A stretch of 64,000 nt of DNA from Betaproteobacteria bacterium. GTDB taxonomy: Bacteria > Pseudomonadota > Gammaproteobacteria > Burkholderiales > JACQAP01. A model generated the notes under the pieces. That model was not told where the DNA came from. It saw nothing but the letters and a program-made list of their open reading frames with translations, and made no database searches. Both the position numbers and the translations under genes were made by a program. Location of the stretch: NCBI GenBank assembly GCA_039931685.1, contig JBDTRK010000004.1, forward strand, positions 426 through 64,425. Reading direction: 5' to 3'. How positions within the stretch are numbered: the stretch's first letter is position 1; each line of letters begins with the position of its first letter. Of this stretch, positions 22,616 through 51,181 are shown in pieces.

Positions 22616-22821
22616 GGGCAAGCGGGATCGCCCCGTGAAAACCAGTGAATGAAAAAAACTGCAACGCGGCAGTTGCGGCTATCGGGCGCACAGACTTCGG
22701 CGCTGGCCCGGCGAGCTCGAACAGCCCGTGCCATGATGCCGTTGTCGCGCATTTCGCTCTGTGCACTATCGAACATACGGCACGCGCGTTTGTATTTTCG
22801 GGCCGGGCGATTTGCACCCGC

Positions 22822-22924: not shown

Positions 22925-23773
22925 TTACGAACCCGGCCGCGTTACCGTATTGCCATCGAGCGTCACGTTGGTTCCGGTAAAGAATCGGCCATTGGCCGAC
23001 GCGCCCGTGCCCAGTGTGACCGCTGATCCAGTAATGATGATGCCCTCAAAATGCGCGGTCGTGCCGATGGCCGCGCCAGCGCCACCGCCAATTTGCCAGA
23101 ACACGTTCTTGGCCAGTGCACCGCCGGTCAGGATCACATTCGTAGCGGCGGCCTGGGTCAGATTTCCGGAAATCTGGAAGATCCAGACATCCGTTGCGCT
23201 GCCGTTGAGGGTGAGATCCGATGCGATGCTCACGTCCGTGCCCCAGGTGTAGGTGCCGGCCGGGAGGGTTTCACTGCCGATGGTTCCGGCGCCGTGATTC
23301 AGGTTGGCACCCGTTCCTGCAGGACGTCCAGCCGCATCGCCATATGCGGCGATCGAATCGTTTACGGCCGTGGTCAGGTCGGCAGGGGTGGGCGCCGTAT
23401 AGTCAGATGCGTACATCTTGCCGGTGACTTGCGAAGACGTCGCAAAGGTATTGGACGCGTCCATCGTTTCTGAAAATCCCGTTGTCGCGGTGCTGGCGAT
23501 GGGACTCGTGCCGATGTTACCGGTCACTGTGGAGGTTGAAATGTTGGTGGTTCCCGCCTGCGCAAGAATCACGAAAGTCCCGGCGCTATTGAGGTTCACG
23601 CAAGCCGGGTTCGTCGTATCGCAAACCGCCCCTGCCGCGCTTACCGGCGTCGGGCCGGGGCTGGCTGCCGGAGCGCCATCGCCACCACCGCCGCCGCAAC
23701 CGGCCACGAAGCCGGTCAGCACAAACGCAATCAACCACGTCAGTCGCCTTGTAGTGCTCTCGAATCTGTTCAT
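22925..23773 (-). CDS. ice-binding-like (DUF3494) family lipoprotein
   Basis: Lipoprotein signal (LIAFVLTGFVAGC) followed by a Gly-rich linker. DUF3494 hallmarks: AGTFVILAQAGTTNISTSTVTGNIGTSPIASTATTGF and the C-terminal GASANGRFFTGTNVTLDGNTVT. Thr/Gly/Ala-rich beta-solenoid-like composition. Confidence 0.8.
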   Translation of the reverse strand: MNRFESTTRRLTWLIAFVLTGFVAGCGGGGGDGAPAASPGPTPVSAAGAVCDTTNPACVNLNSAGTFVILAQAGTTNISTSTVTGNIGTSPIASTATTGFSETMDASNTFATSSQVTGKMYASDYTAPTPADLTTAVNDSIAAYGDAAGRPAGTGANLNHGAGTIGSETLPAGTYTWGTDVSIASDLTLNGSATDVWIFQISGNLTQAAATNVILTGGALAKNVFWQIGGGAGAAIGTTAHFEGIIITGSAVTLGTGASANGRFFTGTNVTLDGNTVTRPGS

Positions 23774-30051: not shown

Positions 30052-30861
30052 GGCGGCGCTCGCCGGATCCCATCGGCAGGTGACGTTGCAGGACTGATGA
30101 CAATATCACGCGGGAGGCATGTTTCCGTTCGAGGTTGCGTCGCCTTGCGGCGCATCGACCGCAAATCGAAGTTCATCCGGGCAAGCGTACCGGCGTATCA
30201 GTCCAGCCACAACGCGAGTCTGGAAACGCCGGACCGTGCATCGCAGACCGGCTTGCGATCTTGCGATGCGGCGACCCGACACCTACCGCGGCTTCATGCG
30301 ATGTGAATGCCGCAATTGCAGGTGAAGCGATTCACTTGCACGCCCTTCCCTGCCTCGCCTGCACGGACCGGCCCCCGCATCGGGGCCAGGCCATGAGCTT
30401 GTCAATCGCGCCGACGGGCTCGCCCCTCGACGACGTCCCGCCGTAGTCATCGCCTCTCCCAAAAATTTCGCCAGGCCACTTCGCGTCCGGCCCGGCTCGG
30501 GCGCGCTTTGCGCGACAACGAGTTGAGCCGGGCTGCAGCGCTCAAGTTCCCGATTGCCAACCGCACAGGGTCTGGGACCTTGCCCGGCCGACAACGCTAA
30601 CCCCCTCTCGCACATCAGCAATTTATCGCTCTCGGGACGAACAAGGCGCCCTGTCGTTCAAGCCAGACAGCTTTTTGTGAGCGCAAACAACGGTCTCAAT
30701 GAATATGGGCATCAGTTGTCGCCCTGACACTACATCTCTGTAGTGGTTAATCTACACTCCTCCATCTATCCATCTATTTATAAATGACTTTCTGAAGCGG
30801 CATGCGTCTTGCAGACAGATGCAGTGAAGCAAATTTTGCTCACTCATTTGGAGGTTCGATC

Positions 30862-32229
30862 ATGGACTGCAATATCGCCTTGCCAGTACTTCATAGTAGC
30901 GGTGATCCCGGTGGCTTCATACGTAACAACCCTGAGCGTCACGCTGCAAGTTCTTCGGTCGCCGCCTATCGGACTCGCGCACTTCATTCGGCTTCTGTCG
31001 GGATTCTCCTGGTCGGCATCTCGTTGATCGCCGCGTGCGGGAGCGGCGGCGGCGGCTCGGATGCGAGTGCGGCTGCAGGTAAGAATCGCGGTGGCGGTGG
31101 AACAGCCTCGACGACCGTCCCTAGCACGACACCAACCACAACCCCAACCACAACCCCAACCACTACCCCAACCACTACCCCGACCGGCACCGCTACCACT
31201 CGCGACGTGCTCCAGCAGCCTTTCGCGGTCACCAGCATTTGGAACATGCCGATCGGCAGCAACGCCGTCTATGTGCCCGCAAACATACCGGCGATTCCCT
31301 ACAGCCCGAATGAATGGGCACCGATGCCGGTCATTGACAGGGAAATCATCGTCCTCACGCCGACCGCGCCGCTGACAAATATCTACTACAGCAGCGCGGC
31401 CTGGACCGGAGCCAACCGTTGTGCCCCTACCGGCAGCATGATTTTCCAGTTGCCTATCCCGAGCAACTTTGTCGTCCCCAACGCACCCGGCAATGGAAGC
31501 GCGGCGTTCCTCAAGGCGGATGGACGCACCCTGGTTCAGACGCAGCCGTTTACGCGCTGCACCGCTGGCGCATCGGGAACTTCGCTTACCGACGCGTCCA
31601 GTTTTCCTGAGGTCGATCTCCATGGCGACGGCATCCGCGGTTCTCATGGCGGCTCGGGACTATCGGCAATTGGCGGGTCCATCCGCGTGGGTGAACTGCG
31701 CCCCGGAAGCAAGGGACCGGCACACGCCCTCAAGGTGGCTGTCGACTCGCCACAGGTTCTCTTCGCGTGCACGACCGCCAGCCAGTGTTTCCGTTGGCCG
31801 GCGGATAGAGCCGACGGTGGTGCCGTGGGCTCTTACGGCAGGCTCCGCCCCAGCAACAGCAGCGCAATGAAGATGGGCGCGCTGCTCGCCATCCCGGCCT
31901 CGACGAACCTGTCAAACCTGGGCCTGGAGACGGAACCAGGAAAGCAGCTCGCCTGGACGCTGCAGAACTACGGCGCTTACATCGACGACAGCACGGGCGG
32001 TCCAGCCGTAGTCATCAACGCCGAGGACGGCTATCACGGATCCGTGATAACGCAGTTCCAGAACGATTGGGGCTTCCCGATGGAACAACGCGTGAACAGC
32101 AACTCGCCGTGGTCCCGCGACATGCAACGTTTGATGACGGCGCTTTATGTTGTGGACAATAACAGCCCAACCACCATTGGCGGCGGCGGCACGCCCCTTC
32201 AGCCTCTTGCCGCGGCGTTGAGCAACTGA
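30862..32229 (+). CDS. secreted lipoprotein with Thr/Pro linker and uncharacterised ~330-aa C-terminal domain
   Basis: The ATG at 30862 is preceded by TGGAGG. Signal/lipobox: GILLVGISLIAAC followed by GSGGGG. The linker is (TTTP)n. The C-terminal domain has enzyme-like conserved-looking blocks (HGGSGLSAIGGSIRVGEL, FRWPADRADG) that I cannot assign to a family. Confidence 0.7.
   Translation: MDCNIALPVLHSSGDPGGFIRNNPERHAASSSVAAYRTRALHSASVGILLVGISLIAACGSGGGGSDASAAAGKNRGGGGTASTTVPSTTPTTTPTTTPTTTPTTTPTGTATTRDVLQQPFAVTSIWNMPIGSNAVYVPANIPAIPYSPNEWAPMPVIDREIIVLTPTAPLTNIYYSSAAWTGANRCAPTGSMIFQLPIPSNFVVPNAPGNGSAAFLKADGRTLVQTQPFTRCTAGASGTSLTDASSFPEVDLHGDGIRGSHGGSGLSAIGGSIRVGELRPGSKGPAHALKVAVDSPQVLFACTTASQCFRWPADRADGGAVGSYGRLRPSNSSAMKMGALLAIPASTNLSNLGLETEPGKQLAWTLQNYGAYIDDSTGGPAVVINAEDGYHGSVITQFQNDWGFPMEQRVNSNSPWSRDMQRLMTALYVVDNNSPTTIGGGGTPLQPLAAALSN
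31129..31184 (+). repeat. 12-bp tandem repeat encoding (T-T-T-P)n linker
   Basis: aca cca acc aca acc cca acc aca acc cca acc act acc cca acc act acc ccg acc. About 4.5 in-frame copies of ACN-ACC-CCA-ACC. Confidence 0.9.
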
Positions 32230-32711: not shown

Positions 32712-33533
32712 ATGCAAGCTTGCAGTCAAATTGTGAATAAACTGAATACAGGTTCGCCGCAATCTCCGGAGGTCGCGACGCTGACCGCGGAAGCCGCGTC
32801 GCAACTTGCCGGCGACGCCGTCGAGGTCGTGGTCGCCCGGCTGGACGTGGAGCCGGATGCGGTCAATGCGCTGGCAGGCTGGCTCGATGGCGATGAGCGT
32901 AAGCGGGCGCTTCGCTTTGAATTCGAACGCGACCGCCAGCGATTCATTGTTGCGCGGGGACGCCTGCGGCAATTGCTTGGCGCGCGCCTGGATACCGAAC
33001 CGCAATCGGTCGAGCTGTCGTATGGAACACACGGCAAGCCCGTTCTCGCACACGGATCCGCGGACCAGGACTGGCGCTTCAATGTCTCGCATTCCAGGGA
33101 CGTCGCGGTGTTCGCCTTTTGTCGCGGGCGCGAAGTGGGCATTGACGTCGAAGCGGTCCATTCCGTCCATTGCGCTGACGCCGTTGCGGCGCATTTCTTC
33201 TCGCGCAATGAACTGGAGACGTACCTGGCGCTCGACGAGCCGGACAAGGAGCTGGGTTTCTTCCATTGCTGGACACGCAAGGAAGCGTTCATCAAGGCCC
33301 TTGGCGACGGCCTGCGTTATCCCCTGGACTCTTTCGATGTCTCCCTGTCGCCGCGCGTGCCCGCCAGACTCCTGCGTGTCGGAAATCTGGACGGCAACCA
33401 CTCCGGATGGTACCTGCGCAGCTTCATTCCGACGCCGGGCTATGTCGCAGCGATCGTCATCGAGCGCTCCAGGGCCGCGACCAACGATGCCGCCTTTCTG
33501 AAGGGTCCCGCCTGCAAGCTATGGACGCGATGA
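32712..33533 (+). CDS. Sfp/EntD-type 4'-phosphopantetheinyl transferase
   Basis: GKPVL...FNVSHSRDVAVFAF...VGIDVE and FFHCWTRKEAFIKALG are the canonical PPTase motifs. The stop overlaps the next gene's start. Confidence 0.88.
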   Translation: MQACSQIVNKLNTGSPQSPEVATLTAEAASQLAGDAVEVVVARLDVEPDAVNALAGWLDGDERKRALRFEFERDRQRFIVARGRLRQLLGARLDTEPQSVELSYGTHGKPVLAHGSADQDWRFNVSHSRDVAVFAFCRGREVGIDVEAVHSVHCADAVAAHFFSRNELETYLALDEPDKELGFFHCWTRKEAFIKALGDGLRYPLDSFDVSLSPRVPARLLRVGNLDGNHSGWYLRSFIPTPGYVAAIVIERSRAATNDAAFLKGPACKLWTR

Positions 33534-34717
33534 ATCCGGTCGCCAGTGATCGGCGGCAACCCGTAGTGCCTTCCGGCAGCTATCGCTCCGCATGGATCGA
33601 CGACGAGGTGCGGATGTTCCGCAAGACCGCATCCCAGTTCATCCAGAAGGAATTCGCGCCTCACTATGCCCGCTGGTGCACCCAGCAACGCCCCGATGCC
33701 GACGCCTGGACGAAGGCGGGCGGCGTAGGCCTGCTTCTGCCTGACATTCCCGAAGCGTACGGCGGCGGTGGCGGCACCTTCGCCCATGAAACCGTGGTCC
33801 TGGAGGAACTTGCCCAGGCCGGGATCCAGTTCGGTGCCAGCATCCAGAGCATCGTCGCACACTACATCCTCGCCTACGGCAGGGAAGAGCAGAAACGCCA
33901 TTGGCTTCCCCGTATGGCGCGCGGTGAACTGGTGGCCGCCATCGCCATGAGCGAGCCTTCCGCGGGCTCCGACCTGCAGGGCATCAAGACCACTGCCCGG
34001 CGCGACGGCGACCACTATGTCATCAAAGGTTCGAAGACGTTCGTCACCAACGGCTGGCACGCCGGGATCGTCTGCCTGGCGGTGAAAACCGATCCCGCAA
34101 GCGCCGGCCTGAAAGGACTTTCCCTCGTCATCGTCGAAACGAAAAATCTTCCCGGCTACCACGTCGGGCGCTCGCTCGAAAAGGTCGGCATGCACGCGCA
34201 GGATACCTGCGAGATCTTCTTCGACGACGTGCGCGTGCCGGCCTCGAACCTTCTCGGCGCCGCTGAAGGCAAGGGCTTTTCCCAGATGATGGAGCAACTG
34301 CCCTACGAGCGCCTCACGGTCGGCGTAAGCGCCGTCGCAACAGCGGAGCGTGCGGTCGCCATTACCACCCAATATGTCAAGGACAGAACGGCCTTCAGCA
34401 AGCCGCTCATCGATTTTCAGAATACCCGCTTCCAGCTCGCCCAATGCGTGACCGAAGCGCAGATCGGGCGCGTCTTTCTGGACAACTGCATCGAGCGTTT
34501 CATCGCCGGAGGGCTCGACGACGTTACGACGGCCATGGCGAAGTACTGGCTCACCGAGTGTGAATGCCGCATCGTCGACGCGTGCATGCAGTTGCATGGC
34601 GGTTACGGCGTCATGATGGAGTATCCGATTGCCCGCATGTGGGTCGACAGCCGTGCGCAACGGATCTACGCCGGCACAAATGAAATCATGAAGGAGTTGA
34701 TCGCCTGGTCGTTGTAA
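33521..34717 (+). CDS. acyl-CoA dehydrogenase-family flavoenzyme
   Basis: ACAD N, middle and C regions (AIAMSEPSAGSDLQGIKTTA, GSKTFVTNG, HGGYGVMMEYPIARMWVDSRAQRIYAGTNEIMKELIA). The ATG at 33521 or 33530 overlaps the PPTase stop. The ORF-track start at 33266 lies inside the PPTase gene. Confidence 0.88.
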   Translation: MDAMNPVASDRRQPVVPSGSYRSAWIDDEVRMFRKTASQFIQKEFAPHYARWCTQQRPDADAWTKAGGVGLLLPDIPEAYGGGGGTFAHETVVLEELAQAGIQFGASIQSIVAHYILAYGREEQKRHWLPRMARGELVAAIAMSEPSAGSDLQGIKTTARRDGDHYVIKGSKTFVTNGWHAGIVCLAVKTDPASAGLKGLSLVIVETKNLPGYHVGRSLEKVGMHAQDTCEIFFDDVRVPASNLLGAAEGKGFSQMMEQLPYERLTVGVSAVATAERAVAITTQYVKDRTAFSKPLIDFQNTRFQLAQCVTEAQIGRVFLDNCIERFIAGGLDDVTTAMAKYWLTECECRIVDACMQLHGGYGVMMEYPIARMWVDSRAQRIYAGTNEIMKELIAWSL

Positions 34718-34753: not shown

Positions 34754-37588
34754 ATGAAACGGACGAAAAATACGCAGGACGGATCGACGCACAACGACAT
34801 CCCGCGGTTGCGCATTTTCGACGATGCGAACCGCCAGCGGCCGGCGGATGAATGCAATGACTCGGCGGTAGCTTTTCCCGACAAGGATCTGTGTTTGCAC
34901 GACCTGTTCGAGAAGCAGGCCGCACGAACTCCCGACGCGCTGGCCCTCGTGTACGAGCAGCAAAGGCTGAGCTATCGTGATCTGGCGCAGCGCTCCGACC
35001 AGCTCGCCCGGCAATTGCGCACCTTGGGCGCCGGACCGGATGTGCTCGTCGGGCTGCTGGTCGAGCGTTCGCTTGAGATGGTGGTGGGAATCCTGGGCAT
35101 TCTGAAGGCAGGCGCAGCCTATTTGCCCATTGATCCCGGCTATCCCCAGGAACGGGTCGGCTTCATGCTCGCCGACGCCAATGCCGCGCTGGTCCTCACG
35201 CAAACCAGTTTGCTGCCCTCCCTGCCTGTCGGCACCACGCAGGCCGTATGCCTGGATACCTTCGAATGGAGCGCAGCGGGGGCATCGCCGCGGGACGCAG
35301 TTCACTTCCATCCGCGCAATCTCGCGTACGTGATCTATACGAGCGGTTCCACCGGCCATCCCAAAGGGGTCGGCATCGAACATCGCAACATCGTCAATTA
35401 CGTGTTGGGCGTAGCGCAGCGGCTGCAACTGGAGCCCGGCATGAATTGCGCGACCGTGTCGACCATCGCCGCCGACCTCGGTAACACGGTGATCTTCCCG
35501 GCGCTGGCCACCGGGGGCTGCGTGCACGTCATATCGCAGGAAAGGGCCGAGAACCTGGACTTGCTGGCAGAGTACTTCAGCCGCGAGGCAATCGACGTGC
35601 TGAAGATCGTGCCGTCACATCTCGCGGCATTACAAAGCGGCAGGAATCCCGAGCGGATCATGCCCAGGAAACGTCTCATCCTCGGCGGCGAGGCCTCGCG
35701 GCTCGAATGGATCGCGCAACTGCGCGCGTTGGCGCCCGATTGCGCGATTTACAACCACTACGGCCCCACGGAAACCACCGTAGGGGTACTAACCTATCGT
35801 GTCGGCGCACAGTTGCCGGATACGCCGTCCGGCACACTGCCATTGGGCAAACCCCTGCCGAACAGCTGCATGCACATCCTCGATGCGGGCGGGCAACCCG
35901 TGCCGGTCGGGGATCGGGGCGAGCTCTGCATCGGCGGCAACGGCGTGGCGCGCAGCTATCTGAATCGTGCGGACCTGTCTGCCGCGAAGTTTGTCCGCGA
36001 TCCGTTCAGTCGGGATACCACGGCACGAATATATCGCACCGGTGACCTTGCGCGCTACCTGCCGGACGGAAACATCGAGTTTTGCGGCCGCATCGATGAC
36101 CAGATCAAGTTGAACGGCTATCGGGTCGAACTCGGTGAAATCGAATGCGCGCTGCGCGAACAGGGCGGCGTGCGCGATACCGTCGCACTGGCCCGCGAAG
36201 ACGAGTCAGGCACTCCACAGCTGGTCGCTTACGTGGTGCCGCAGCGGACCAATCAGGCGCTCTGGGGATGCAACCCGATCCATATCCTGCCGGATGGTTC
36301 GCCGATAGCGCATCTGAACAAGAGCGAAACCGACTACATCTATAACGAAATCTTCGTCCTGCAGGCCTACCTGCGGCACGGCATCTCGATACGCGACGGC
36401 GACTGCATCATCGATGCGGGCGCCAACATCGGCCTTTTCACCGTGTTCGCCAGCAGACTGGCCCGTAATGTGCGCATGCTGTCCTTCGAGCCGAATCCTG
36501 CCGCATTTGCCTGCCTGAAGGCCAATGCCGAAGCCTGGGGCACCTCGGTGAAATGCCTGCCGCTGGGATTATCCCGGGAAAACAAATCGGCGGAGCTGAC
36601 ATTTTTCCAGGGGCTTTCGCTGCTGTCCGGGTTTTACGCCGACGCCGCCGTCGAACACGAGATGGTCAAGAATTACGTGCTGAACCAGCAGCCGGACCCG
36701 TCGCAAAGCGAGCAGTCGGCTGCCGATATCGGCGCCTTGATCGATGACCGGCTGCAATCTCGCGTCATAACTGCCCAGCTTCGCACGCTGTCGAGCGTCA
36801 TGGCGGAGGAAGGTATCGACCGTATCGACCTGCTCAAGATCAATGTTGAAAAGAGCGAACTGGACGTGCTGATGGGCATCGGGCGCGACGACTGGGCCAG
36901 GATCCGCCAACTGGTCATCGAAGTGGACCAGAACGCAAACCTCACGCCCATCACCGACCTGCTGGAGCAGCACGGTTTCGAGTACCTCGTCGAACAGGAT
37001 CCGTTGCTGCGGAACACCGAGCTTTGTTACGTGTACGCGATCCAGCCTTCGGATCACGGTCGCCTCGTACGACAACAATCGGCCGATGCCCATCTGCGCG
37101 CGCTGCCAGCCGTCGACGCAGAAATTCTGACGCCCGCGCTTTTGCGCAACCATCTGAAAGCGCGGCTCCCCCGGTACATGATTCCGTCGGCATTCATCCT
37201 GATGGAGAAGTTCCCGTTGACTTCGAACGGCAAGATCGATCGCAAGGCCTTTCCTGCATTCTCCGGCGAGAAATTGGCCCCCGTCCGCGCACTCGCTGCT
37301 CCACAGACCGATACCCAAAGGGAACTCGCGACGATCTGGGCCGAGCTGCTGAAGCTCGACAGTGTGGGCATCGACGACGATTTCTTCGACCTCGGGGGAC
37401 ATTCCTTGCTCGCCATCCGCGCCGTGTCGCGCATACGGGATCGATTCGCGGTGAATCTGTCGCTGCGTAATCTGCTCGAAGCGCCCACGGTGGAAGGGTT
37501 GGCCCGGGTCATCGATGGCTTGTCCTGGCTGAAGCGCTCCAGGAACCCGTCGGATGACACCGGCAATCGGGAGGAAATCGCACTATGA
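34754..37588 (+). CDS. NRPS-like adenylation domain interrupted by an FkbM-type methyltransferase, plus a thiolation (PCP) domain; no condensation domain
   Basis: A-domain cores: LKAGAAYLPIDP, YVIYTSGSTGHPKGV, NHYGPTETTVG, YRTGDLARYLPDGNIEFCGRIDDQIKLNGYRVELGEIE, then LPRYMIPSAF and NGKIDRKAF. About 290 aa are inserted between the last two groups and carry FkbM-like motifs (DCIIDAGANIGLFTVFAS, LSFEPNP, IDLLKINVEKSELDVL). PCP motif FFDLGGHSLLAI. Confidence 0.9.
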   Translation: MKRTKNTQDGSTHNDIPRLRIFDDANRQRPADECNDSAVAFPDKDLCLHDLFEKQAARTPDALALVYEQQRLSYRDLAQRSDQLARQLRTLGAGPDVLVGLLVERSLEMVVGILGILKAGAAYLPIDPGYPQERVGFMLADANAALVLTQTSLLPSLPVGTTQAVCLDTFEWSAAGASPRDAVHFHPRNLAYVIYTSGSTGHPKGVGIEHRNIVNYVLGVAQRLQLEPGMNCATVSTIAADLGNTVIFPALATGGCVHVISQERAENLDLLAEYFSREAIDVLKIVPSHLAALQSGRNPERIMPRKRLILGGEASRLEWIAQLRALAPDCAIYNHYGPTETTVGVLTYRVGAQLPDTPSGTLPLGKPLPNSCMHILDAGGQPVPVGDRGELCIGGNGVARSYLNRADLSAAKFVRDPFSRDTTARIYRTGDLARYLPDGNIEFCGRIDDQIKLNGYRVELGEIECALREQGGVRDTVALAREDESGTPQLVAYVVPQRTNQALWGCNPIHILPDGSPIAHLNKSETDYIYNEIFVLQAYLRHGISIRDGDCIIDAGANIGLFTVFASRLARNVRMLSFEPNPAAFACLKANAEAWGTSVKCLPLGLSRENKSAELTFFQGLSLLSGFYADAAVEHEMVKNYVLNQQPDPSQSEQSAADIGALIDDRLQSRVITAQLRTLSSVMAEEGIDRIDLLKINVEKSELDVLMGIGRDDWARIRQLVIEVDQNANLTPITDLLEQHGFEYLVEQDPLLRNTELCYVYAIQPSDHGRLVRQQSADAHLRALPAVDAEILTPALLRNHLKARLPRYMIPSAFILMEKFPLTSNGKIDRKAFPAFSGEKLAPVRALAAPQTDTQRELATIWAELLKLDSVGIDDDFFDLGGHSLLAIRAVSRIRDRFAVNLSLRNLLEAPTVEGLARVIDGLSWLKRSRNPSDDTGNREEIAL

Positions 37589-38583
37589 ACCTGCAGCCCT
37601 TCCTGGCCGAACTGTACAGTCGCAATATTCAGCTCTGGGCCGACGGCGACCGCCTCAGGTGCAAGGCGCCAACGGGTGTACTCACGACCACCCTGCGCGA
37701 CCAGTTGATAGAGCGCAAGGGCGAGATCCTGGCGCTTCTGCGCAGCGCCGAGGCCGTTTCCAGCCAGCCGCGGGCGATCGTTCCGCTTCAACCGGGGGGC
37801 GATCGCACGCCAATTTTTGCGGTCGCCGGCCACAATGGCGACGTCTTCGCCTATCGCGCCCTGGCGTTCCACCTCGGTAAAGATCAGCCGTTCTTCGCAC
37901 TCGAGCCACCGGGACTCGATGGCGACAGCGAACCGTTGCAGCGGGTCGAGGACCTCGCCGACTATTTTGCCGCGCAGATCCAGGCATTTCAGCCTGACGG
38001 CCCCTACATCATTGCCGGCTATTGCGCGGGCGGCACGATTGCCTTCGAACTGGCCCGCCAGTTACGGGCGCGTGGCGCAACGATCCAGCTTCTGGCCCTG
38101 ATTGCCTCGCCGTACCCGACGTCCTTTCGCGTTGCGGCGCGTATGCAACAGGCTGTCGTGCACCAGGTGGCGCGCATCGTCCGGCATGTCCGTTCGTTGC
38201 GACGGCTGTCATTCCTGGAATCTATTCGGTACATAAGCGCGAAATTTCGCCGGCGCAGTCTACTGCGCGACGCCGAGCACGCTGCATCGCTGGATCCCGT
38301 TCTGGCGCGGCGCGACGACGTGGCGCGCACTACGATTGCGGCGCTGCGCCGTTACACGCCGGAGCGTTATTCCGGGCGTGTAGGCCTTTTGTTGCCCAAC
38401 AGGCAATGGTTGCGCTCAGGCGCCGCCCCCTTGCATTGGCGATCCGTAGCGCCACACGCCGAGCATTACTTCGGTCCGGACGGCTGCAATCCGGACCTCC
38501 TGTTGGTCGATCCGGACGCCCCCGCCATTGCCGATCTGTTCAGGCGGTGCCAGGAAGGCAAGCCGGCGGAGGCCTCGCCGTGA
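37585..38583 (+). CDS. TubC-N-type docking domain fused to a thioesterase with a Cys nucleophile (GYCAG)
   Basis: The N-terminus (FLAELYSRNIQLWADGDRLRCKAPTGVLTTTLRDQLIERKGEILALL) matches the TubC N-terminal docking pattern. The alpha/beta-hydrolase TE has the nucleophile elbow IIAGYCAGGTIAFELA (TGC at 38023-38025). The start overlaps the NRPS stop as ATGA. Confidence 0.8.
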   Translation: MNLQPFLAELYSRNIQLWADGDRLRCKAPTGVLTTTLRDQLIERKGEILALLRSAEAVSSQPRAIVPLQPGGDRTPIFAVAGHNGDVFAYRALAFHLGKDQPFFALEPPGLDGDSEPLQRVEDLADYFAAQIQAFQPDGPYIIAGYCAGGTIAFELARQLRARGATIQLLALIASPYPTSFRVAARMQQAVVHQVARIVRHVRSLRRLSFLESIRYISAKFRRRSLLRDAEHAASLDPVLARRDDVARTTIAALRRYTPERYSGRVGLLLPNRQWLRSGAAPLHWRSVAPHAEHYFGPDGCNPDLLLVDPDAPAIADLFRRCQEGKPAEASP

Positions 38584-38945: not shown

Positions 38946-40100
38946 ATGAAAATCTGCCTGCTCGGCCTGCATAACCTGTCTGTCCTGGCACCGGAATTCA
39001 AAAACCACACTGTGGGTGGCGAACCGGTCCAGCAGACATTGCTGGCAAGGGCGCTCGCGCGTCGAGGGCATGATGTAAGCATGGTCGTTGCTGATTATGG
39101 CCAGGAGGACGACCTGGAATGCAGGGCCATACGACTGTTCAAGGCCTATCGCCTCGATGCGGGCATACCGGTGCTGCGCTTCGTGCATCCCCGCTGGACC
39201 AGATTGTGGTCGGCACTGATGCGGGCGGATGCCGAGCTCTATTACACGAGTTGCGCAGGCATGGAGGTCGGCCTGCTCGCATTGTTCTGCCGGTATTTCG
39301 GCAAACGGTTCGTATTCCGCAGCGCAAGCGATGCGGACTGCGACAAATCGCGCCTGCTCGTCAGACACGCGCGCGATCGTTGGCTCTATGCCTATGGCCT
39401 GCGGCGGGCGGATGCCATCCTGGTACAGAGCGCCTCCCAGGCGCAAGCCTTGTTGCGCAGCTATGGATTGGCGAGCCGGATTGCGGGAATGCTGGTCGAG
39501 CATCCGCGGTCGCCCCCCCCCCATGACCTGGACGTGTTGTGGGTCGGCAACATTCGGGGCGTAAAGAGGCCGGACCGGGTTCTCGAACTTGCAGCGAAAC
39601 TGCCGCAATTCAATTTTCACATGGTCGGGGGCCCCCTGTCCGGCGACGAAGCGCTCTATGAGGCGGTGCGGGATGCGGCAGCGACAAGGACCAATCTGAC
39701 CTTTCATGGCCGCCTGTCGTATGGGGACGCCAACGATCTGTACGATCGGGCAAAGCTGCTGGTCAATACTTCCGATGTGGAGGGTTTTCCGAATTCGTAT
39801 CTGCAGGCCTGGATCCGGGGCGTGCCCGTAGTAACGCTCATCGATCCTGACCGCGTGATTGAGCGCGAAGGTCTGGGCGTCGCTGCAAGTTCACCGGACG
39901 GGCTCTCCAGGGCCATCGGTGCCCTGCTTGGGTCGCCGACAGCCTGGCAGGCGGCCAGCGATCGCTGCAGGTATTTCATGGCGCGGGAATTCGGCGAAGA
40001 TAAAATTCTGACCGCCTACCTTGAGACATTCGATGACGTCATGCGGTCCCGACCGCCCAACGCCCGGAATTTCCCGACAAGCGAGGCACCCCGTGCCTGA
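38946..40100 (+). CDS. GT4-family (group 1) glycosyltransferase
   Basis: MKICLLGLH...GGEPVQQTLLARALARRGHDVSMVV, with a C-terminal GT-B region (NTSDVEGFPNSYLQAWIRGVPVV). It contains the C10 tract. Confidence 0.85.
   Translation: MKICLLGLHNLSVLAPEFKNHTVGGEPVQQTLLARALARRGHDVSMVVADYGQEDDLECRAIRLFKAYRLDAGIPVLRFVHPRWTRLWSALMRADAELYYTSCAGMEVGLLALFCRYFGKRFVFRSASDADCDKSRLLVRHARDRWLYAYGLRRADAILVQSASQAQALLRSYGLASRIAGMLVEHPRSPPPHDLDVLWVGNIRGVKRPDRVLELAAKLPQFNFHMVGGPLSGDEALYEAVRDAAATRTNLTFHGRLSYGDANDLYDRAKLLVNTSDVEGFPNSYLQAWIRGVPVVTLIDPDRVIEREGLGVAASSPDGLSRAIGALLGSPTAWQAASDRCRYFMAREFGEDKILTAYLETFDDVMRSRPPNARNFPTSEAPRA
39513..39522 (+). repeat. homopolymeric C10 tract inside the GT4 coding sequence
   Basis: tcg ccc ccc ccc cat encodes S-P-P-P-H. 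I counted ten consecutive C directly in the sequence. Confidence 0.95.
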
Positions 40101-41190
40101 GACCCCTTTCATCATCACGGTCGATACGGAGGGCGACAATCTCTGGGAAAAACCACGAGAAATTACCACCCGCAATGCGGCCTACCTGCCTCGCTTCCAG
40201 TTGCTCTGTGAGCGGTTCCACTTCAAACCTGTCTATCTGGTGAATTATGAAATGGCGATGTCGGACGTATTTGTCGAGTTCGGACGCGATGTCGTATCCC
40301 GCGGTGCCGGCGAAATCGGCATGCATCTGCACGCCTGGAACTCGCCGCCGCTTGAGCCGCTGACCCGCGACGATTTCTTTCATCAACCCTTTCTGATCGA
40401 GTACCCGGACCGGATCATGAGCGAAAAAATCCACACCATGACCCATCTGCTCGAGCACAAGTTCGATCGCAAAATGATCAGCCATCGCGCGGGGCGCTGG
40501 GCGTTCGACGGCCGGTATGCGGCGATGCTGATCGACGAGGGTTATCTGGTCGACTGCTCCGTGACGCCGGGCGTCGACTGGAGCGCCACACCGGGTGATC
40601 CGGAGGGCAATGGCGGCACGGACTACACTTCATTTCCCGACAGCCCATACTTACTCAGCCCGGTCGATATTTCGGTTGCGTCAGCCGGACCAATGCTCGA
40701 GGTGCCCATGACGGTCTTTGCGAGCAAACTCTTCCAACATTCGCCCTGGGTTTATCGGGTGCCCGGTTTGGCCCGGGCCGCCCGGCGAATATCTCCGCAG
40801 CGACGCTGGCTGTGCCCGGTTGCACTTCTGGAAAAGCACAACCACGATGCCATGCTGCAACTCGCCCGCAGAGCACGCGATGAACCTCCGACCCATATGG
40901 AATTCATGCTGCACTCCTCGGATCTCATGCCGGGCGGCAGCCCGAGCTTCAAGAACGCATCAGACATCGACGGTTTGTACGATCGCCTGGAAACGCTGTT
41001 CGACAAATTATCAATGTGGTGCCGCGGGATGACGCTCGCGGAGTTCCGGGAACACTGGATGAAGGCGCCGAATAAAACGCGATTAATCGGGCTCGGCGAA
41101 CAGCAAAGCAATCGGGTGGCCAGATCAATGGAAGTGAGAAAGTCCACGACCGGCCCGGCCCCGGTGGAAAAAGGCAGCGTACCGGGATGA
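40093..41190 (+). CDS. polysaccharide deacetylase-like / glycoside hydrolase-deacetylase barrel superfamily protein
   Basis: FIITVDTEGDNLW...GMHLHAWNSPP...EFMLHSSDLMPG resembles CE4-like barrel proteins from EPS loci. GTG at 40093 overlaps the GT4 stop by 8 nt; ATG at 40021 is an alternative. The family call is moderate. Confidence 0.55.
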   Translation: MPETPFIITVDTEGDNLWEKPREITTRNAAYLPRFQLLCERFHFKPVYLVNYEMAMSDVFVEFGRDVVSRGAGEIGMHLHAWNSPPLEPLTRDDFFHQPFLIEYPDRIMSEKIHTMTHLLEHKFDRKMISHRAGRWAFDGRYAAMLIDEGYLVDCSVTPGVDWSATPGDPEGNGGTDYTSFPDSPYLLSPVDISVASAGPMLEVPMTVFASKLFQHSPWVYRVPGLARAARRISPQRRWLCPVALLEKHNHDAMLQLARRARDEPPTHMEFMLHSSDLMPGGSPSFKNASDIDGLYDRLETLFDKLSMWCRGMTLAEFREHWMKAPNKTRLIGLGEQQSNRVARSMEVRKSTTGPAPVEKGSVPG

Positions 41191-41975
41191 TCCGCATCGA
41201 GGGGACGGGCGCGATTTACGGGGAAGTATGGTACGACGAAGAACCGCCCCGGAATTCCGGAGTGGATATCGTCCGCTATCGCTGCAGACACGCCGCTATC
41301 GCGAATGCCCGCCATTCTCCGTTTCTGTCGTTGGTCACGGATCTTTGCGCAGAGGCCAATGCCATCGCCGACCAGTTCGGCAAGGATTGCCGGTACAAAG
41401 TCCGGCGCGCCGACACGAAGGATGAACTGGACACGGAATTCATCCTGGAACCGGAGAACCGGCTGGACGAATTCGGCGAATTCTTCGACACGTTCGCTCG
41501 TCAAAAGGGGCATGAAGCCTGCGATCGGCAATGGTTGCGCGCTGCATGCAAAGCCCGCCAGCTCGTCCTCACGACGGCGACCCGGCACGGCGAGGCGCTG
41601 GTGTGGCACGCCTATGTCATCGCTGGAAATTCGACCTGGTTGCAGTACACCGGATCCTGTTTCCGCAATCGAGAAAGCGATTACCGCGCCCTCGTCGGCC
41701 GGGCCAATCGTTGGCTGCACTGGAAAGACATGCTGCGGTTCAAGGAACTGGGAATGCTCCGCTATGACTGGGGCGGAATGTTCGAGGACGAATCGACCCC
41801 GGACCGCGCCGGGATCAACGAATTCAAAAGAACCTTTGGCGGACGGCTTGCGCGAACTTACGATTGCACGGTCCCGGTGACCCTCAAAGGCCGGATCTAT
41901 CTTCCGCTTCGCGACGCGTGGCGCAGCCGAAAGACCATTCTTCCCGGCCGAAAAGAAGTTGCCGCAGGAGCCTGA
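41187..41975 (+). CDS. FemAB-like / GNAT-fold (Acetyltransf_6-like) protein
   Basis: 262 aa. KDCRYKVRRA..., WHAYVIAGNSTWLQYTGS..., ANRWLHWKDMLRFKELGMLRYDWGG and INEFKRTFGG resemble FemAB-family / BioF2-like N-acyltransferases found in PEP-CTERM-type EPS loci. The start overlaps the upstream stop as ATGA. Confidence 0.55.
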   Translation: MIRIEGTGAIYGEVWYDEEPPRNSGVDIVRYRCRHAAIANARHSPFLSLVTDLCAEANAIADQFGKDCRYKVRRADTKDELDTEFILEPENRLDEFGEFFDTFARQKGHEACDRQWLRAACKARQLVLTTATRHGEALVWHAYVIAGNSTWLQYTGSCFRNRESDYRALVGRANRWLHWKDMLRFKELGMLRYDWGGMFEDESTPDRAGINEFKRTFGGRLARTYDCTVPVTLKGRIYLPLRDAWRSRKTILPGRKEVAAGA

Positions 41976-49135: not shown

Positions 49136-51181
49136 TCAGCAGACGATCTCGGTGCGCAAGACAACCCGGCCCTTGAGCCGGCCCTGCCATACGATGGTCG
49201 GCGAGGGCAGCTTGTCGTCGAACTGTCGCGACACCCAACCGAAGATGGGCGCAATGCCCCCGGTGATGACTTGTGAGCTCGTCGCCTCGAACTCCGGAAG
49301 CCTGAGCAAGAGGGTCTCCCTGCCCTGGCTCAGCACGTAGCCGCCGGGAACCGCCTCGACCCGGCATTGCTCGCTGCAATGGAACAGCAGTTCTATGTCG
49401 TGCGATTCGGCCATATGCAACGTATCTTCGATGGTCACCAGCCTGCTGGCCTTGCTTAAGGTAATCCGCCGCCGGTGCGTCACCGGATCGTCCAGCCGCT
49501 TGTAGCCGTCGTGCCATCCTTCGAACAAGTCCTCCTCTGGCGTGCTGGCCCATTGGCTGCAGCCCGCGCGCGCTTTCTTCAGCCACATGAAATTACCGCC
49601 GGACTCCGACTGGTCTTTTGCATCCACACGCACCGTGTTGTGCGCGGCCGTGCCGCGAAAATATCGGCGCCAGGGGCCCTGCGTATGGTAGGCATAGGTC
49701 CCGGGATCGATCAGGAACTCCAGGCCGCCGACCGACAAGGTGAAAGACAAGGCATCGGCATGCCCATGGGCGGCGATGGACCGGAAGCCCAATGGCCCTG
49801 CATCGGCGGTCAGCCGGATTTCGTTTTCCGTTTCGAAGTCGCAGCCGAGGATGTAATAGCCTCCGATCGGAAAGCTCTGCCGCGGCGGCAGCGTGGTCGC
49901 CGCCACGGATTGCGCATCGAACAGGCTGTCCGCCTGGCTGCCCAGCAGCCATCGCGTCTTGTCGTCGAGCGAGCCGGCCTTGCGCTTGAACTCGCCGCTG
50001 CGGAAGATGACCGCGCCTGTCGCGAGCAGGGATCGGGAGGGGGAGACTTCGTCCGCACCCAGCCGCGCAACCCGGCCGTCGTCGGCGTCACCGAACATCG
50101 GAACATTCCCGCTCACGTCCATGATCGATGCAAGGTAGTCGAGCATGGCCTCGATGCGGGTTTCGTAGGCGACCGAAAACCAGATTCCGTTTTCCTTGCC
50201 GGCAAGCAGGCAAAGCAACAGAAAATCCAGCACGAACTCATGGTAGGCAACGGCTTGCTCACGATTCACGCCATCGGGAGCATTTTGCCGCAACGCCTCG
50301 GCTTCCAGGATGGCCTTGGCCGTCGACCGCCATTTTTTGGCCACACGCCAATGCGGCCAGGTCAGGCCCGCGATGAAAAGACCGGCAGCTTCGCCGATGA
50401 GATGGTTATTGGCGGAAGAGTGACGCGAAAAGTAGCCGCGCACGAACTGCGCATGCTGATACACCGATTCAAGCCAACGCTGCTGCAAACGCGCGCCCTG
50501 GGCACCGTCGAACAACGGCGATCGTGCGCCCCCGAGCAGTTGCCAGGTGACGGACCAGTTGATCAGCCGGATGGCCACTTCGAGCGCACTCGACCAGTTC
50601 GGGCCCATGCGGTAGGGGCAGGAAGCAAACCACGATTCCAGGTGCTGCCGGATGACCTGCAGATACGCGGCGTCGCCGCTGAGCACGTAGGCTTGCGCCA
50701 ACGTCACAAGATGAAGATGCCGGTTGGGCTCCCATAGATACTTGATGTCCCCGACCAGATGCGGGTTGCGGTAGTCGAGGAGTTTTCCGAAGCTGAGCGG
50801 CGCATCGATTCCGGACTTTGGATCGCGGTTCCAGCGCGGCGGGGAGCCGATATCGAAATCCTTCAAGGCAAATACATCCAGCTTTCCCGCGGCGACGCGG
50901 TCGGCGGCAGCCGTGTACCGCGCAGCATCCACGCTGGCAGTGGCGTGAATCCAGGAATTCGAGGTGGCGGCCAGAGCGGGTGCCGGCATAGTCTGGCCTC
51001 CGAAGAACCATCCGACGCTCTGCGCATGCGCGGACAATGCACGCGCGAAGCGGTGGACGATCTCCGCAGGCGACATGCAACTCAGGCGATTGATGCGCCA
51101 CGTGAGCCAATGCGAGATTCCCGTAACCACGTCGGCCGGCTCGCGCCGACCGCCGGGTCCTGCGATTTCATGCCCGTGCAT
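49136..51181 (-). CDS. heparinase II/III-family protein
   Basis: KYLWEPNRHLHLVTLAQAY, SANNHLIGEAAGLF and IAAHGHADALSFTL are typical of alginate-lyase-like N-terminal plus heparinase II/III C-terminal domains. The start overlaps the asnB-like stop by 14 nt. An alternative ATG is at 51076. Confidence 0.82.
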   Translation of the reverse strand: MHGHEIAGPGGRREPADVVTGISHWLTWRINRLSCMSPAEIVHRFARALSAHAQSVGWFFGGQTMPAPALAATSNSWIHATASVDAARYTAAADRVAAGKLDVFALKDFDIGSPPRWNRDPKSGIDAPLSFGKLLDYRNPHLVGDIKYLWEPNRHLHLVTLAQAYVLSGDAAYLQVIRQHLESWFASCPYRMGPNWSSALEVAIRLINWSVTWQLLGGARSPLFDGAQGARLQQRWLESVYQHAQFVRGYFSRHSSANNHLIGEAAGLFIAGLTWPHWRVAKKWRSTAKAILEAEALRQNAPDGVNREQAVAYHEFVLDFLLLCLLAGKENGIWFSVAYETRIEAMLDYLASIMDVSGNVPMFGDADDGRVARLGADEVSPSRSLLATGAVIFRSGEFKRKAGSLDDKTRWLLGSQADSLFDAQSVAATTLPPRQSFPIGGYYILGCDFETENEIRLTADAGPLGFRSIAAHGHADALSFTLSVGGLEFLIDPGTYAYHTQGPWRRYFRGTAAHNTVRVDAKDQSESGGNFMWLKKARAGCSQWASTPEEDLFEGWHDGYKRLDDPVTHRRRITLSKASRLVTIEDTLHMAESHDIELLFHCSEQCRVEAVPGGYVLSQGRETLLLRLPEFEATSSQVITGGIAPIFGWVSRQFDDKLPSPTIVWQGRLKGRVVLRTEIVC

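What the first reader, a model, noticed from the sequence alone, without database searches (positions are those of the whole stretch)
37585..38583. Free-standing thioesterase with a Cys nucleophile (GYCAG) and a TubC-type docking domain
The nucleophile elbow reads IIAG-Y-C-A-GG (TGC at 38023-38025) instead of GxSxG.
- Cys-nucleophile NRPS thioesterases are rare.
- In the cases I recall (obafluorin ObiF, sulfazecin SulM) they are linked to strained-ring (beta-lactone or beta-lactam) release chemistry.
- The N-terminal ~55 aa look like a TubC-N docking domain, which normally mediates intersubunit NRPS contacts.
- Here it is fused to a TE, which suggests trans docking onto the A-MT-T protein.
- A Cys acyl-enzyme would also suit transfer of the unit onto a sugar hydroxyl or amine rather than hydrolysis.
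Basis: partly seen in the sequence, partly recalled or inferred. Interest (0 to 1): 0.7.

Follow-up and report, generated by a model that had tools for sequence, protein, structure and literature searches.

The report
Docking-domain cysteine thioesterase, noncanonical active site
This is a real, widely conserved release enzyme that clips onto the tail of a one-module peptide synthetase and takes its product onto a cysteine; it lacks the histidine and aspartate that normally assist such enzymes, so its release chemistry is unknown.

Summary
ORF 37585..38583 encodes an N-terminal TubC_N (beta-hairpin docking) domain joined to a thioesterase-fold domain, with Cys147 (TGC 38023-38025) at the nucleophile elbow.

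The Cys is not an error or a strain oddity. All 79 readable related loci have it, encoded by both TGC and TGT. It dominates a large clade of soil-bacterial proteins.

Docking is well supported. In 75 loci the upstream carrier protein ends in R-E-E-[I/V/F]-x-[L/V]; nearly all overlap the thioesterase start. Tail changes are matched by docking-domain charge swaps.

The link to strained rings is not supported. The canonical Asp (A174) and His (P303) positions are unoccupied across this clade. The only conserved ionisable candidates are His83 and Asp86 in the oxyanion loop.

PPTase, acyl-CoA dehydrogenase, A(FkbM-MT)T and the thioesterase form a cassette found across phyla, sometimes with an extra C-A-T module. 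The A-domain code is Asp-type. The sugar-transfer genes nearby are specific to the Burkholderiales.

Best reading: a docked chain-release thioesterase with a rewired active site. It is a new variant of a known kind and moderately interesting.

The parts
37585..38583 (+). Gene for the docking-domain thioesterase (332 aa)
   Evidence: ORF and translation; Pfam TubC_N + Thioesterase; more than 1100 homologues
37585..37764 (+). N-terminal beta-hairpin docking (TubC_N) domain, residues 1-60; hairpin strands at 16-20 and 23-27 (DGDRLRCK)
   Evidence: Pfam PF18563 E 3.3e-19; PDB sequence hits to AerJ, TubC and EpoB docking domains; alpha-beta-beta-alpha-alpha secondary structure in the model
37774..38559 (+). 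Alpha/beta-hydrolase thioesterase domain, residues 64-325, with a three-helix lid at 178-256
   Evidence: AF2 model; Foldseek hits to NRPS/PKS TEs; hhalign probability 100% against canonical TE domains
38023..38025 (+). Cys147 codon (TGC) in the G-Y-C-A-G-G nucleophile elbow
37831..37842 (+). His83-Asn84-Gly85-Asp86 in the loop after strand beta3 (oxyanion loop). His83 and Asp86 are the clade hallmark and the candidate relocated base/acid pair
   Evidence: His83 and Asp86 are invariant in A1. His83 is in all readable loci; Asp86 in 66 of 75. They are the only candidate base/acid residues at >=85% conservation in the clade. They are anti-correlated with the canonical Asp/His. His83 aligns with x of the H-P-x-G-G motif
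38104..38106 (+). Ala174 at the position of the canonical type I TE aspartate (after beta6)
   Evidence: Aligned with the Asp of AB3403 and of canonical TE domains; G/A in the clade
38485..38493 (+). Cys301-Asn302-Pro303 in the loop after beta8. Pro303 occupies the canonical catalytic His position, and Cys301 lies in a two-residue insertion
   Evidence: hmm alignment and hhalign; Cys301 is invariant in close relatives but only about 65% conserved clade-wide
37568..37585 (+). C-terminal tail R-E-E-I-A-L of the A-MT-T protein: the short linear motif predicted to bind the docking domain
   Evidence: Conserved at the extreme C-terminus of the upstream carrier protein in 75 loci regardless of its architecture; covaries with hairpin residues 25 and 27; binding mode as shown for Kj12 (PMC6195595)
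34754..37588 (+). A-(FkbM methyltransferase)-T protein, 944 aa. The MT is inserted between A8 and A9; T domain at residues 857-920; specificity code DLTKIGHVGK
   Evidence: Pfam; translation; code conserved in all 33 MT-containing loci
33521..34717 (+). Acyl-CoA dehydrogenase-family flavoenzyme (398 aa from the ATG at 33521)
   Evidence: Pfam; NCBIfam; 66-82% identical across phyla; closest PDB entries are 2PG0 and human LCAD
32712..33533 (+). Sfp/HetI-type phosphopantetheinyl transferase
   Evidence: Pfam; NCBIfam HetI 5.9e-47; conserved in the cassette
38946..41975 (+). GT4 glycosyltransferase (38946-40100), unknown protein (ORF 40021-41190) and FemX-like GNAT (41187-41975). These follow the cassette only in the closest Burkholderiales relatives
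   Evidence: Pfam; locus L001 gene list; tblastn across loci; weak FemX match

Best explanation
The gene encodes the trans-acting chain-release thioesterase of a small, self-contained carrier-protein pathway: PPTase, acyl-CoA-dehydrogenase-like flavoenzyme, A(MT)T, and this thioesterase.

Shown by comparative data:
- Its N-terminal beta-hairpin docking domain binds the C-terminal tail ...REEIAL of the A-MT-T protein. This tethers the thioesterase next to the carrier domain.

Inferred from fold and conservation:
- The carrier-bound unit is transferred from phosphopantetheine onto Cys147 by thioester exchange, giving an acyl-S-enzyme.
- The unit is most likely an aspartate methylated by the embedded FkbM-type domain and oxidised by the flavoenzyme.

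Inferred, not shown:
- The usual helpers are absent (Asp after beta6, His after beta8).
- The clade-specific His83/Asp86 pair in the oxyanion loop beside the nucleophile is the most likely substitute base/acid.
- Release is most likely by water, giving a free tailored amino acid in this one-module version and short peptides in relatives that carry extra C-A-T modules. A thioester intermediate without a canonical water-activating His would equally suit attack by an amine or hydroxyl acceptor.
For: - Fold and elbow Cys.
- Cys is invariant and encoded by two synonymous codons.
- The tail motif is conserved in 75 loci, with the start overlapping the upstream stop in nearly all (72 of 75); all 4 tail changes at position -4 are matched by hairpin changes (R25 to Q/K, residue 27 to D).
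- The binding mode of such tails is established for Kj12 (PMC6195595) and for SLiM/beta-hairpin pairs (PMC13324335).
- Clade members fused in cis to NRPS C-termini lack the docking domain.
- The same thioesterase clade ends a multimodular NRPS-PKS and A-MT-T-C-A-T synthetases. Chain release is the common denominator.
- The four-gene cassette stands alone among unrelated genes in Vicinamibacterales and Gemmatimonadales.
- The Asp-type code DLTK[IV]GHVG is present in all MT-containing loading modules.
- Canonical Asp aligns with A174 and canonical His with P303, by two independent alignments.
- His83/Asp86 co-occur with loss of both canonical residues in 62 rows; sequences that keep the canonical pair lack His83.
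- No other plausible base/acid residue reaches 85% conservation in the clade.
- Precedent for stand-alone A-T modules whose tailored amino acid is freed by a dedicated thioesterase: discussion in PMC7966384.
Against: - No coordinates of the model could be inspected, so the proximity of His83/Asp86 to Cys147 is inferred only from alignment to the H-P-x-G-G oxyanion loop.
- The His83 / no-canonical-His anti-correlation may partly reflect shared ancestry rather than functional compensation.
- His201 (lid) and Cys301 are invariant among close relatives and could contribute.
- Hydrolysis versus transfer is not resolved.
- The flavoenzyme resembles fatty acyl-CoA dehydrogenases (LCAD, 2PG0) more than prolyl-carrier dehydrogenases, so its substrate is uncertain.
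- No member of the clade has been characterised, as far as my literature searches show.
Confidence: 0.55

Rival explanations
1. Acyltransferase rather than hydrolase. The Cys147 acyl-enzyme hands the tailored aspartyl unit to a hydroxyl or amine of a sugar or exopolysaccharide intermediate made by the neighbouring GT4, FemX-like and EPS genes.
For: - The gene sits inside a large polysaccharide locus.
- GT4, an unknown protein and a FemX-like gene follow it in the same order in 7 close relatives.
- A thioester acyl-enzyme with no canonical water-activating His favours aminolysis or alcoholysis.
- Precedents for alpha/beta-hydrolase transfer of carrier-bound acyl groups exist: CouN7 and Pks13 (own knowledge, and PMC8748450 introduction).
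Against: - The GT4/unknown/FemX-like trio is absent from roughly 35 other cassette loci in Gemmatimonadetes, Acidobacteria, Verrucomicrobia and others.
- There the cassette is flanked by unrelated genes.
- The same thioesterase clade terminates ordinary multimodular NRPS lines.
Confidence: 0.2
2. Aminoacyl shuttle of the CmaE/SyrC/CysB type. The Cys carries the unit from the A-MT-T carrier domain to a second carrier protein elsewhere.
For: - A Cys nucleophile on an alpha/beta-hydrolase fold, acting in trans on a stand-alone A-T module that tailors Asp/Asn, parallels CysH/CysB in cystobactamid biosynthesis (PMC7966384).
- Thioester-to-thioester transfer needs no strong base, which would fit the missing His.
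Against: - No second carrier protein is encoded between 30.8 and 42 kb or in the stand-alone cassettes.
- In relatives the thioesterase always follows the last module of the line.
- Sequence and fold matches are to type I TE domains.
Confidence: 0.08
3. Ring-forming Cys thioesterase like ObiF or SulM, releasing a beta-lactone, beta-lactam or other strained or cyclic product.
For: - GxCxG elbow.
- The position after beta6 is G/A, as in ObiF1 Gly1173 (PMC6668435).
- Asp/Asn thioesters can cyclise through their side chains (own knowledge).
Against: - ObiF and SulM keep the catalytic His and an Asp after beta7 (PMC11298585). Here the His position is Pro and no acid is conserved after beta7.
- No beta-hydroxylase or sulfotransferase is in the cassette.
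- The clade serves lines with unrelated last modules.
- ObiF1 is a weak match (E 2.4e-6).
Confidence: 0.05
4. Catalytically crippled or purely structural thioesterase-like protein, comparable to the triad-less TE0 of PacP, or an editing (type II) thioesterase.
For: Both canonical triad partners are missing. TE-like domains without a triad are known (PMC8748450).
Against: - The elbow Cys, the GG after it and the oxyanion loop are invariant across phyla, with synonymous codon variation.
- It is the only release function in the cassette.
- It has none of the type II hallmarks: GHSxG, about 240 aa, Asp after beta7 plus His (PMC8748450).
Confidence: 0.05

Closest known systems
AB3403 (ABBFA_003403) terminal thioesterase domain, Acinetobacter baumannii, PDB 4ZXH
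   Same: It is the best PDB sequence match (E 2.8e-17). Its elbow is G-W-C-F-G-G, so it too has a Cys nucleophile on a type I TE fold. Its product is also unknown, and its cluster also contains an acyl-CoA dehydrogenase and a PPTase (own knowledge).
   Different: AB3403 is fused in cis to C-A-T. It keeps the Asp after beta6, which aligns with A174 here (PMC11298585), and it has no docking domain.
ObiF and SulM Cys thioesterases (beta-lactone / beta-lactam release)
   Same: GxCxG elbow, a thioester acyl-enzyme, and no Asp after beta6.
   Different: They retain Cys-His-Asp with the Asp after beta7 (PMC11298585, PMC6668435) and are cis domains. Here the His position is Pro303 and no acid is conserved after beta7. 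The match is weak.
TubC / EpoB / Kj12 / AerJ beta-hairpin docking domains with C-terminal short linear motifs
   Same: Pfam TubC_N and PDB matches. The partner ends in a short charged/hydrophobic tail (REEIAL here, versus LRGEI in Kj12B). The salt-bridge logic is supported by covariation (PMC6195595).
   Different: In the described cases I could read, the docking domain precedes C or Cy domains (PMC13324335, PMC6195595). Here it precedes a thioesterase, and it does so as a large conserved family.
Dedicated thioesterases that free amino acids tailored on stand-alone A-T modules (novobiocin, nikkomycin and vancomycin pathways)
   Same: One A-T module, an on-carrier tailoring enzyme and a release hydrolase, with no condensation domain (logic summarised in PMC7966384).
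   Different: Those are Ser hydrolases without docking domains (own knowledge). Here the thioesterase has a Cys, is docked, and also serves elongated lines.
CmaE / SyrC / CysB aminoacyl shuttles
   Same: Trans-acting alpha/beta-hydrolase-type enzymes that carry an aminoacyl group, on a Cys in CmaE and SyrC (own knowledge), taken from a stand-alone A-T module (PMC7966384, PMC8748450).
   Different: They need an acceptor carrier protein, and none is present here. No sequence comparison was possible with these tools.

Membership tests
Type I NRPS/PKS thioesterase (PF00975, alpha/beta hydrolase) | Alpha/beta-hydrolase core with a lid inserted between beta6 and beta7 | tested here: met
   AF2 model pLDDT 88, lid helices 178-256; Foldseek top hits are all TE domains; hhalign probability 100%
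Type I NRPS/PKS thioesterase (PF00975, alpha/beta hydrolase) | Nucleophile elbow G-x-S/C-x-G after beta5 | tested here: met
   G145-Y-C147-A-G149 directly after strand 141-146; aligned with the Ser/Cys of solved TEs
Type I NRPS/PKS thioesterase (PF00975, alpha/beta hydrolase) | Catalytic Asp after beta6 (position I) or after beta7 (position II) | tested here: not met
   Position I is A174, and G/A in the clade. After beta7, residues 271-273 are P-N-R, and position 272 is S/N/C/D in the clade with no conserved acid
Type I NRPS/PKS thioesterase (PF00975, alpha/beta hydrolase) | Catalytic His in the G-x-H motif after beta8 | tested here: not met
   The canonical His aligns with Pro303 in two independent alignments. 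Position 303 is P/G/A/S in 50 relatives. Pfam matches only the N-terminal half of the profile
Beta-hairpin docking domain (TubC_N, PF18563) | Sequence and fold match to TubC/EpoB N-terminal docking domains | tested here: met
   Pfam E 3.3e-19 against a 26-bit cutoff (69 bits); PDB hits to AerJ, TubC and EpoB; helix, hairpin, two helices in the model
Beta-hairpin docking domain (TubC_N, PF18563) | Partner subunit ends in a short linear motif after its carrier domain | tested here: met
   R-E-E-[IVF]-x-[LV] is at the extreme C-terminus in 75 of 75 loci with an upstream ORF; covariation with hairpin residues
Beta-hairpin docking domain (TubC_N, PF18563) | Physical binding of tail to hairpin | not testable with these tools
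   Needs ITC/NMR or a multimer model; only single chains from the window could be modelled
ObiF/SulM-type ring-forming Cys thioesterases | Cys-His-Asp triad with the Asp after beta7 | tested here: not met
   compared with PMC11298585 and PMC6668435
ObiF/SulM-type ring-forming Cys thioesterases | Substrate carrying a beta-hydroxyl or beta-sulfamate nucleophile | tested here: inconclusive
   The A-domain code is Asp-type. No hydroxylase or sulfotransferase is in the cassette. The product is unknown
Type II (editing) thioesterase | About 240-aa stand-alone protein, G-H-S-x-G elbow, Ser-Asp(beta7)-His triad | tested here: not met
   332 aa with a docking domain, G-Y-C-A-G elbow, no triad. RifR and RedJ are only distant matches
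CmaE/SyrC/CysB aminoacyl shuttles | An acceptor carrier protein distinct from the donor | tested here: not met
   Only one PP-binding domain lies between 30.8 and 42 kb, and none is in the stand-alone cassettes
CmaE/SyrC/CysB aminoacyl shuttles | Sequence homology to CmaE/SyrC | not tested
   No CmaE or SyrC sequence or structure was available in the tools used

The most novel reading that the evidence does not exclude
A whole clade of assembly-line thioesterases has moved its catalytic base/acid from the classical beta8 and beta6 loops to the oxyanion loop after beta3 (His83/Asp86). This would create a Cys-His-Asp arrangement with a topology not described for alpha/beta hydrolases. The clade comprises hundreds of species-level genomes in at least seven phyla. 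It is delivered to its carrier protein by a beta-hairpin docking domain and a fixed REEIxL tail. In this arrangement the enzyme would hold the product as a thioester and release it by a non-hydrolytic route, such as aminolysis or transfer. Its core cassette would make a so far unknown dehydro/methyl-aspartate-derived metabolite common in soil bacteria.
Probability: 0.3. Interest if true: 0.7.

Novelty: new variant of a known kind. Interest (0 to 1): 0.5.

Why it matters
- Thioesterases decide how nonribosomal products leave the assembly line, and they are prime engineering targets.
- A large, uncharacterised clade pairs a Cys nucleophile with no canonical His or Asp. It would extend the known catalytic repertoire of the alpha/beta-hydrolase fold.
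- It would also caution against reading "Cys thioesterase" as "beta-lactone or beta-lactam".
- The fixed REEIxL tail and docking-domain pair is a compact, portable way to recruit a release enzyme in trans. That is useful for split or engineered synthetases.
- The conserved four-gene cassette points to an unknown aspartate-derived metabolite made by many uncultured soil bacteria.

Tried and rejected
- **Model coordinates.** I tried to measure distances from Cys147 to His83, Asp86, His201 and Cys301. The prediction tool returns no coordinates, so proximity rests on alignment only.
- **Sequencing error or strain-specific Cys.** Rejected.
- **Canonical His hidden elsewhere in the C-terminal half.** His284, His291 and His294 are variable. 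His201 is only about 63% conserved clade-wide.
- **Cys301 as an essential second thiol.** Rejected as a clade-wide feature: it is about 65% conserved and replaced by S, V or T.
- **Exosortase-system hydrolase families.** There was no NCBIfam hit.
- **Literature.** Searches for a characterised docking-domain thioesterase, or for a TE lacking the His, found nothing relevant. The enacyloxin docking paper was not held.
- **The unknown 389-aa neighbour.** It has no Pfam, NCBIfam or PDB match.
- **Flavoenzyme as a prolyl-carrier-type dehydrogenase.** It is closer to fatty acyl-CoA dehydrogenases, so this is left open.

Full report
**1. Observation**

- The ORF 37585..38583 on the plus strand is real.
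- It starts at an ATG that overlaps the TGA of the upstream 944-aa gene (ATGA). A GGGAGGA ribosome-binding site precedes it.
- Pfam finds TubC_N at residues 6-53 (E 3.3e-19).
- Pfam also finds Thioesterase PF00975 at residues 76-204 (E 6.9e-27). Only the first half of that profile is matched.
- An AlphaFold2 model built on 50 homologues (pLDDT 88) shows two parts.
  - A small helix-hairpin-helix-helix domain.
  - An alpha/beta-hydrolase core with a long three-helix lid (178-256).
- In the model, Cys147 sits directly after strand 141-146, which is the nucleophile elbow.
- Foldseek's best PDB matches are all NRPS/PKS thioesterases: skyllamycin TE 7CRN, NocB, GbnD6, AB3403 and the oocydin branching TE, at E about 1e-15.

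**2. The Cys is selected, and it is the rule in this clade**

- Cys147 is invariant in 50 homologues of 56-80% identity.
- In the 79 distinct, readable related genome loci, every one has Cys. It is encoded by TGC in 62 and TGT in 10 of the 72 that matched a strict pattern.
- That rules out a sequencing error or a strain-specific mutation.
- An exhaustive profile search of 1.84 billion representatives found 3115 proteins at E <= 1e-30.
- Among the 150 best of these, 145 aligned domain rows have Cys and 18 have Ser at this column.
- A scan of one genome per species found 418 loci.
- The top 80 loci are almost all soil metagenome-assembled genomes. They come from Burkholderiales, Gemmatimonadetes, Verrucomicrobia, Acidobacteria, Armatimonadetes, Eisenbacteria and Binatia.
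- Among solved NRPS thioesterases only ObiF, SulM and AB3403 have Cys (PMC11298585). Cys is therefore rare among characterised enzymes, not in nature.

**3. The expected triad partners are missing**

I aligned the clade to canonical TE domains in two independent ways.
  - An HMM alignment of 150 representatives.
  - A profile-profile comparison against 11 canonical terminal TE domains (probability 100%).
- Both give the same answer.
  - The canonical Asp after beta6 (L-A-L-x-D-T) aligns with Ala174, which is G or A in the clade.
  - The canonical His of P-G-x-H-x-x-M aligns with Pro303.
  - Cys301 lies in a two-residue insertion just before that position.
- The AB3403 alignment shows the same Asp-to-Ala174 correspondence.
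- ObiF and SulM place their Asp after beta7 instead and keep the His (PMC11298585, PMC6668435). Here no acid is conserved after beta7.
- In the clade as sampled at 50% clustering, the only candidate base/acid residues conserved at 85% or more besides Cys147 are His83 and Asp86. Glu155 and Tyr257 are also conserved, but Glu155 is equally conserved in canonical domains.
- His201 in the lid and Cys301 are invariant only among close relatives. Clade-wide they are about 63% and 65% conserved.
- His83 and Asp86 lie in the loop after beta3 (G-H-N-G-D).
- His83 aligns with the x of the H-P-x-G-G motif of canonical thioesterases. From my own knowledge of SrfTE and human FAS TE, the backbone NH of that residue forms the oxyanion hole next to the nucleophile.
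- Across representatives, 62 rows combine His83, Asp86, Cys147, G/A174 and no canonical His. Sequences with an acid at 174 and the canonical His lack His83.
- This is what relocation of the base/acid pair would look like.
- The two states also mark two lineages, so shared ancestry is a confounder. I could not measure distances in the model.

**4. Docking**

- I extracted the ORF ending at the thioesterase start in every locus. Its architecture varies: A-MT-T, C-A-T, or two- and three-module proteins of 2000-3200 aa.
- Whatever the architecture, it ends in R-E-E-[I/V/F]-x-[L/V]-stop. The window's version is ...SDDTGNREEIAL.
- The stop overlaps the thioesterase start in nearly every case (72 of 75).
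- Conservation at each tail position across the 75 loci:

| Tail position | Residue counts |
|---|---|
| First | R in 73 of 75 |
| Second | E in 69 |
| Third | E in 69 |
| Fourth | I/V/F in 74 |
| Last | L/V in 72 |

- In four loci the third position is R or Q instead of E. These are the only loci in which hairpin residue 25 changes from R to Q or K together with residue 27 becoming D.
- That is a charge swap of the kind shown experimentally to govern Kj12 tail-hairpin pairing. There, the last five residues add a strand to the hairpin and form two salt bridges (PMC6195595).
- Clade members fused in cis to NRPS C-termini match the profile only from about residue 50 onward, so they lack the docking domain.

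**5. Genomic context**

- The plus-strand genes run in this order:
  - an unknown 475-aa protein;
  - a HetI-type PPTase;
  - an acyl-CoA-dehydrogenase-family protein;
  - A-(FkbM methyltransferase)-T;
  - the thioesterase;
  - a GT4 glycosyltransferase;
  - an unknown protein;
  - a weakly FemX-like GNAT.
- The opposite strand downstream carries a large polysaccharide locus. It contains GT4 genes, UDP-glucose dehydrogenase, heparinase-like and polysaccharide lyases, an asparagine-synthase-type amidotransferase, and Wzy/O-antigen-ligase-like genes.
- tblastn of the window proteins against 80 related loci shows what is conserved.
  - PPTase, dehydrogenase, A(MT)T and thioesterase form a cassette in about 45 loci across phyla.
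  - The dehydrogenase is 66-82% identical across those loci.
  - The GT4, unknown and FemX-like genes follow only in seven close Burkholderiales relatives.
- In a Vicinamibacterales locus and a Gemmatimonadales locus, the four genes sit alone among peptidases, a TonB-type receptor and other unrelated genes.
- In about a dozen loci a further C-A-T module lies between the loading module and the thioesterase. It was confirmed as A-MT-T-C-A-T in L031.
- One 60%-identical homologue instead terminates a multimodular NRPS-PKS.
- The common role of the clade is therefore terminal release. The sugar context is a local feature.

**6. Substrate**

- Reading the specificity residues from the translation gives D-L-T-K-I-G-H-V-G-K. 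From my own knowledge of the Stachelhaus code, this is the aspartate type.
- The code DLTK[IV]GHVG is present in all 33 methyltransferase-containing loading modules.
- A sister variant lacks the methyltransferase and has the asparagine-type DLTKIGEVG. It also has a roughly 400-aa insert of unknown family in the A domain.
- The methyltransferase lies between motifs A8 and A9.
- The dehydrogenase is closest to fatty acyl-CoA dehydrogenases, 2PG0 and human LCAD. It scores below every curated NCBIfam cutoff.
- One chemically coherent but untested sequence runs in three steps.
  - Methyl-esterification of the side-chain carboxylate.
  - Alpha,beta-dehydrogenation to a stabilised enamino ester.
  - Release.

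**7. Mechanism and rivals**

- Best explanation (confidence 0.55): a docked, trans-acting release thioesterase.
  - It takes the carrier-bound unit onto Cys147.
  - His83/Asp86 are the likely helpers.
  - Release is most likely by hydrolysis to a free tailored amino acid. This follows the logic of stand-alone A-T modules with dedicated thioesterases (PMC7966384).
- Rivals:

| Rival | Confidence | Main point |
|---|---|---|
| Transfer to a sugar or polysaccharide acceptor | 0.2 | Context-supported only in Burkholderiales |
| CmaE/SyrC/CysB-like shuttle | 0.08 | No acceptor carrier protein is present |
| ObiF/SulM-like ring formation | 0.05 | The defining triad is not met |
| Inactive or editing protein | 0.05 | The catalytic loops are too conserved |

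**8. Novelty**

- Every component is a known kind: a thioesterase fold, a Cys nucleophile and a beta-hairpin docking domain.
- Three things are new.
  - The combination occurs as a large, conserved family.
  - Both canonical triad partners are absent from the whole clade.
  - The tail motif is fixed.
- My literature searches found no characterised member. The library is incomplete, however, and one key docking paper was not held.
- I rate it a new variant of a known kind, with interest 0.5.
- The most novel reading not excluded is a relocated catalytic dyad and non-hydrolytic release. I give it probability about 0.3.

Noticed in passing
L022:6813-9989 (also L023, L028, L029, L033, L036, L049): A sister cassette in Gemmatimonadetes keeps the PPTase, the dehydrogenase and the docked thioesterase. 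Its loading module has an Asn-type code (DLTKIGEVG). In place of the methyltransferase it has a roughly 400-aa insert with no Pfam match inside the A domain. This is reminiscent of the AMDH insert of CysH (PMC7966384), but I did not test that.
   Followed up: partly
window 33521-34717 and related loci: The acyl-CoA-dehydrogenase-like gene is 66-82% identical across phyla, which is more conserved than the thioesterase (46-71%). Its closest solved relatives are fatty acyl-CoA dehydrogenases (2PG0, human LCAD), not aminoacyl-carrier dehydrogenases. Its substrate in a pathway with no fatty-acid-activating gene is unexplained.
   Followed up: partly
window 13931-22621 (-): A 2896-aa ORF with GH94 supersandwich and catalytic domains plus a GT2-like region. 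This is the architecture of a cyclic beta-1,2-glucan synthase.
   Followed up: no
window 22925-23773 (-); L001:14838-15662 (-): An ice-binding-like (PF11999) protein is encoded near the cassette in the window. In the relative L001 it lies immediately downstream of the FemX-like gene. The recurring neighbourhood is unexplained.
   Followed up: no
window 58000-62000: G+C drops to 0.50-0.54, against about 0.61 elsewhere, over a PMT_2-type glycosyltransferase (57924-59351) and a GT2 gene (60377-61411). This may be a horizontally acquired part of the polysaccharide locus.
   Followed up: no
window 51168-53042 (-) and 61911-63452 (-): The asparagine-synthase-type amidotransferase and the Wzy_C/O-antigen-ligase-like protein score against exosortase (XrtA/PEP-CTERM) system models, but well below their curated cutoffs. 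The locus resembles such EPS systems without qualifying as one.
   Followed up: no
window 30802-32229 (+): A 475-aa ORF upstream of the PPTase has only a weak low-complexity 'mucin' hit. It has no counterpart in any of the 80 related loci. Its link to the cassette is unknown.
   Followed up: partly
P0164, P0179, P0202, P0204, P0243 and others: Several long NRPS/PKS proteins carry two tandem thioesterase-like domains of the related canonical group. Some have Cys and some Ser at the elbow, and a few have Asp at the nucleophile column.
   Followed up: no
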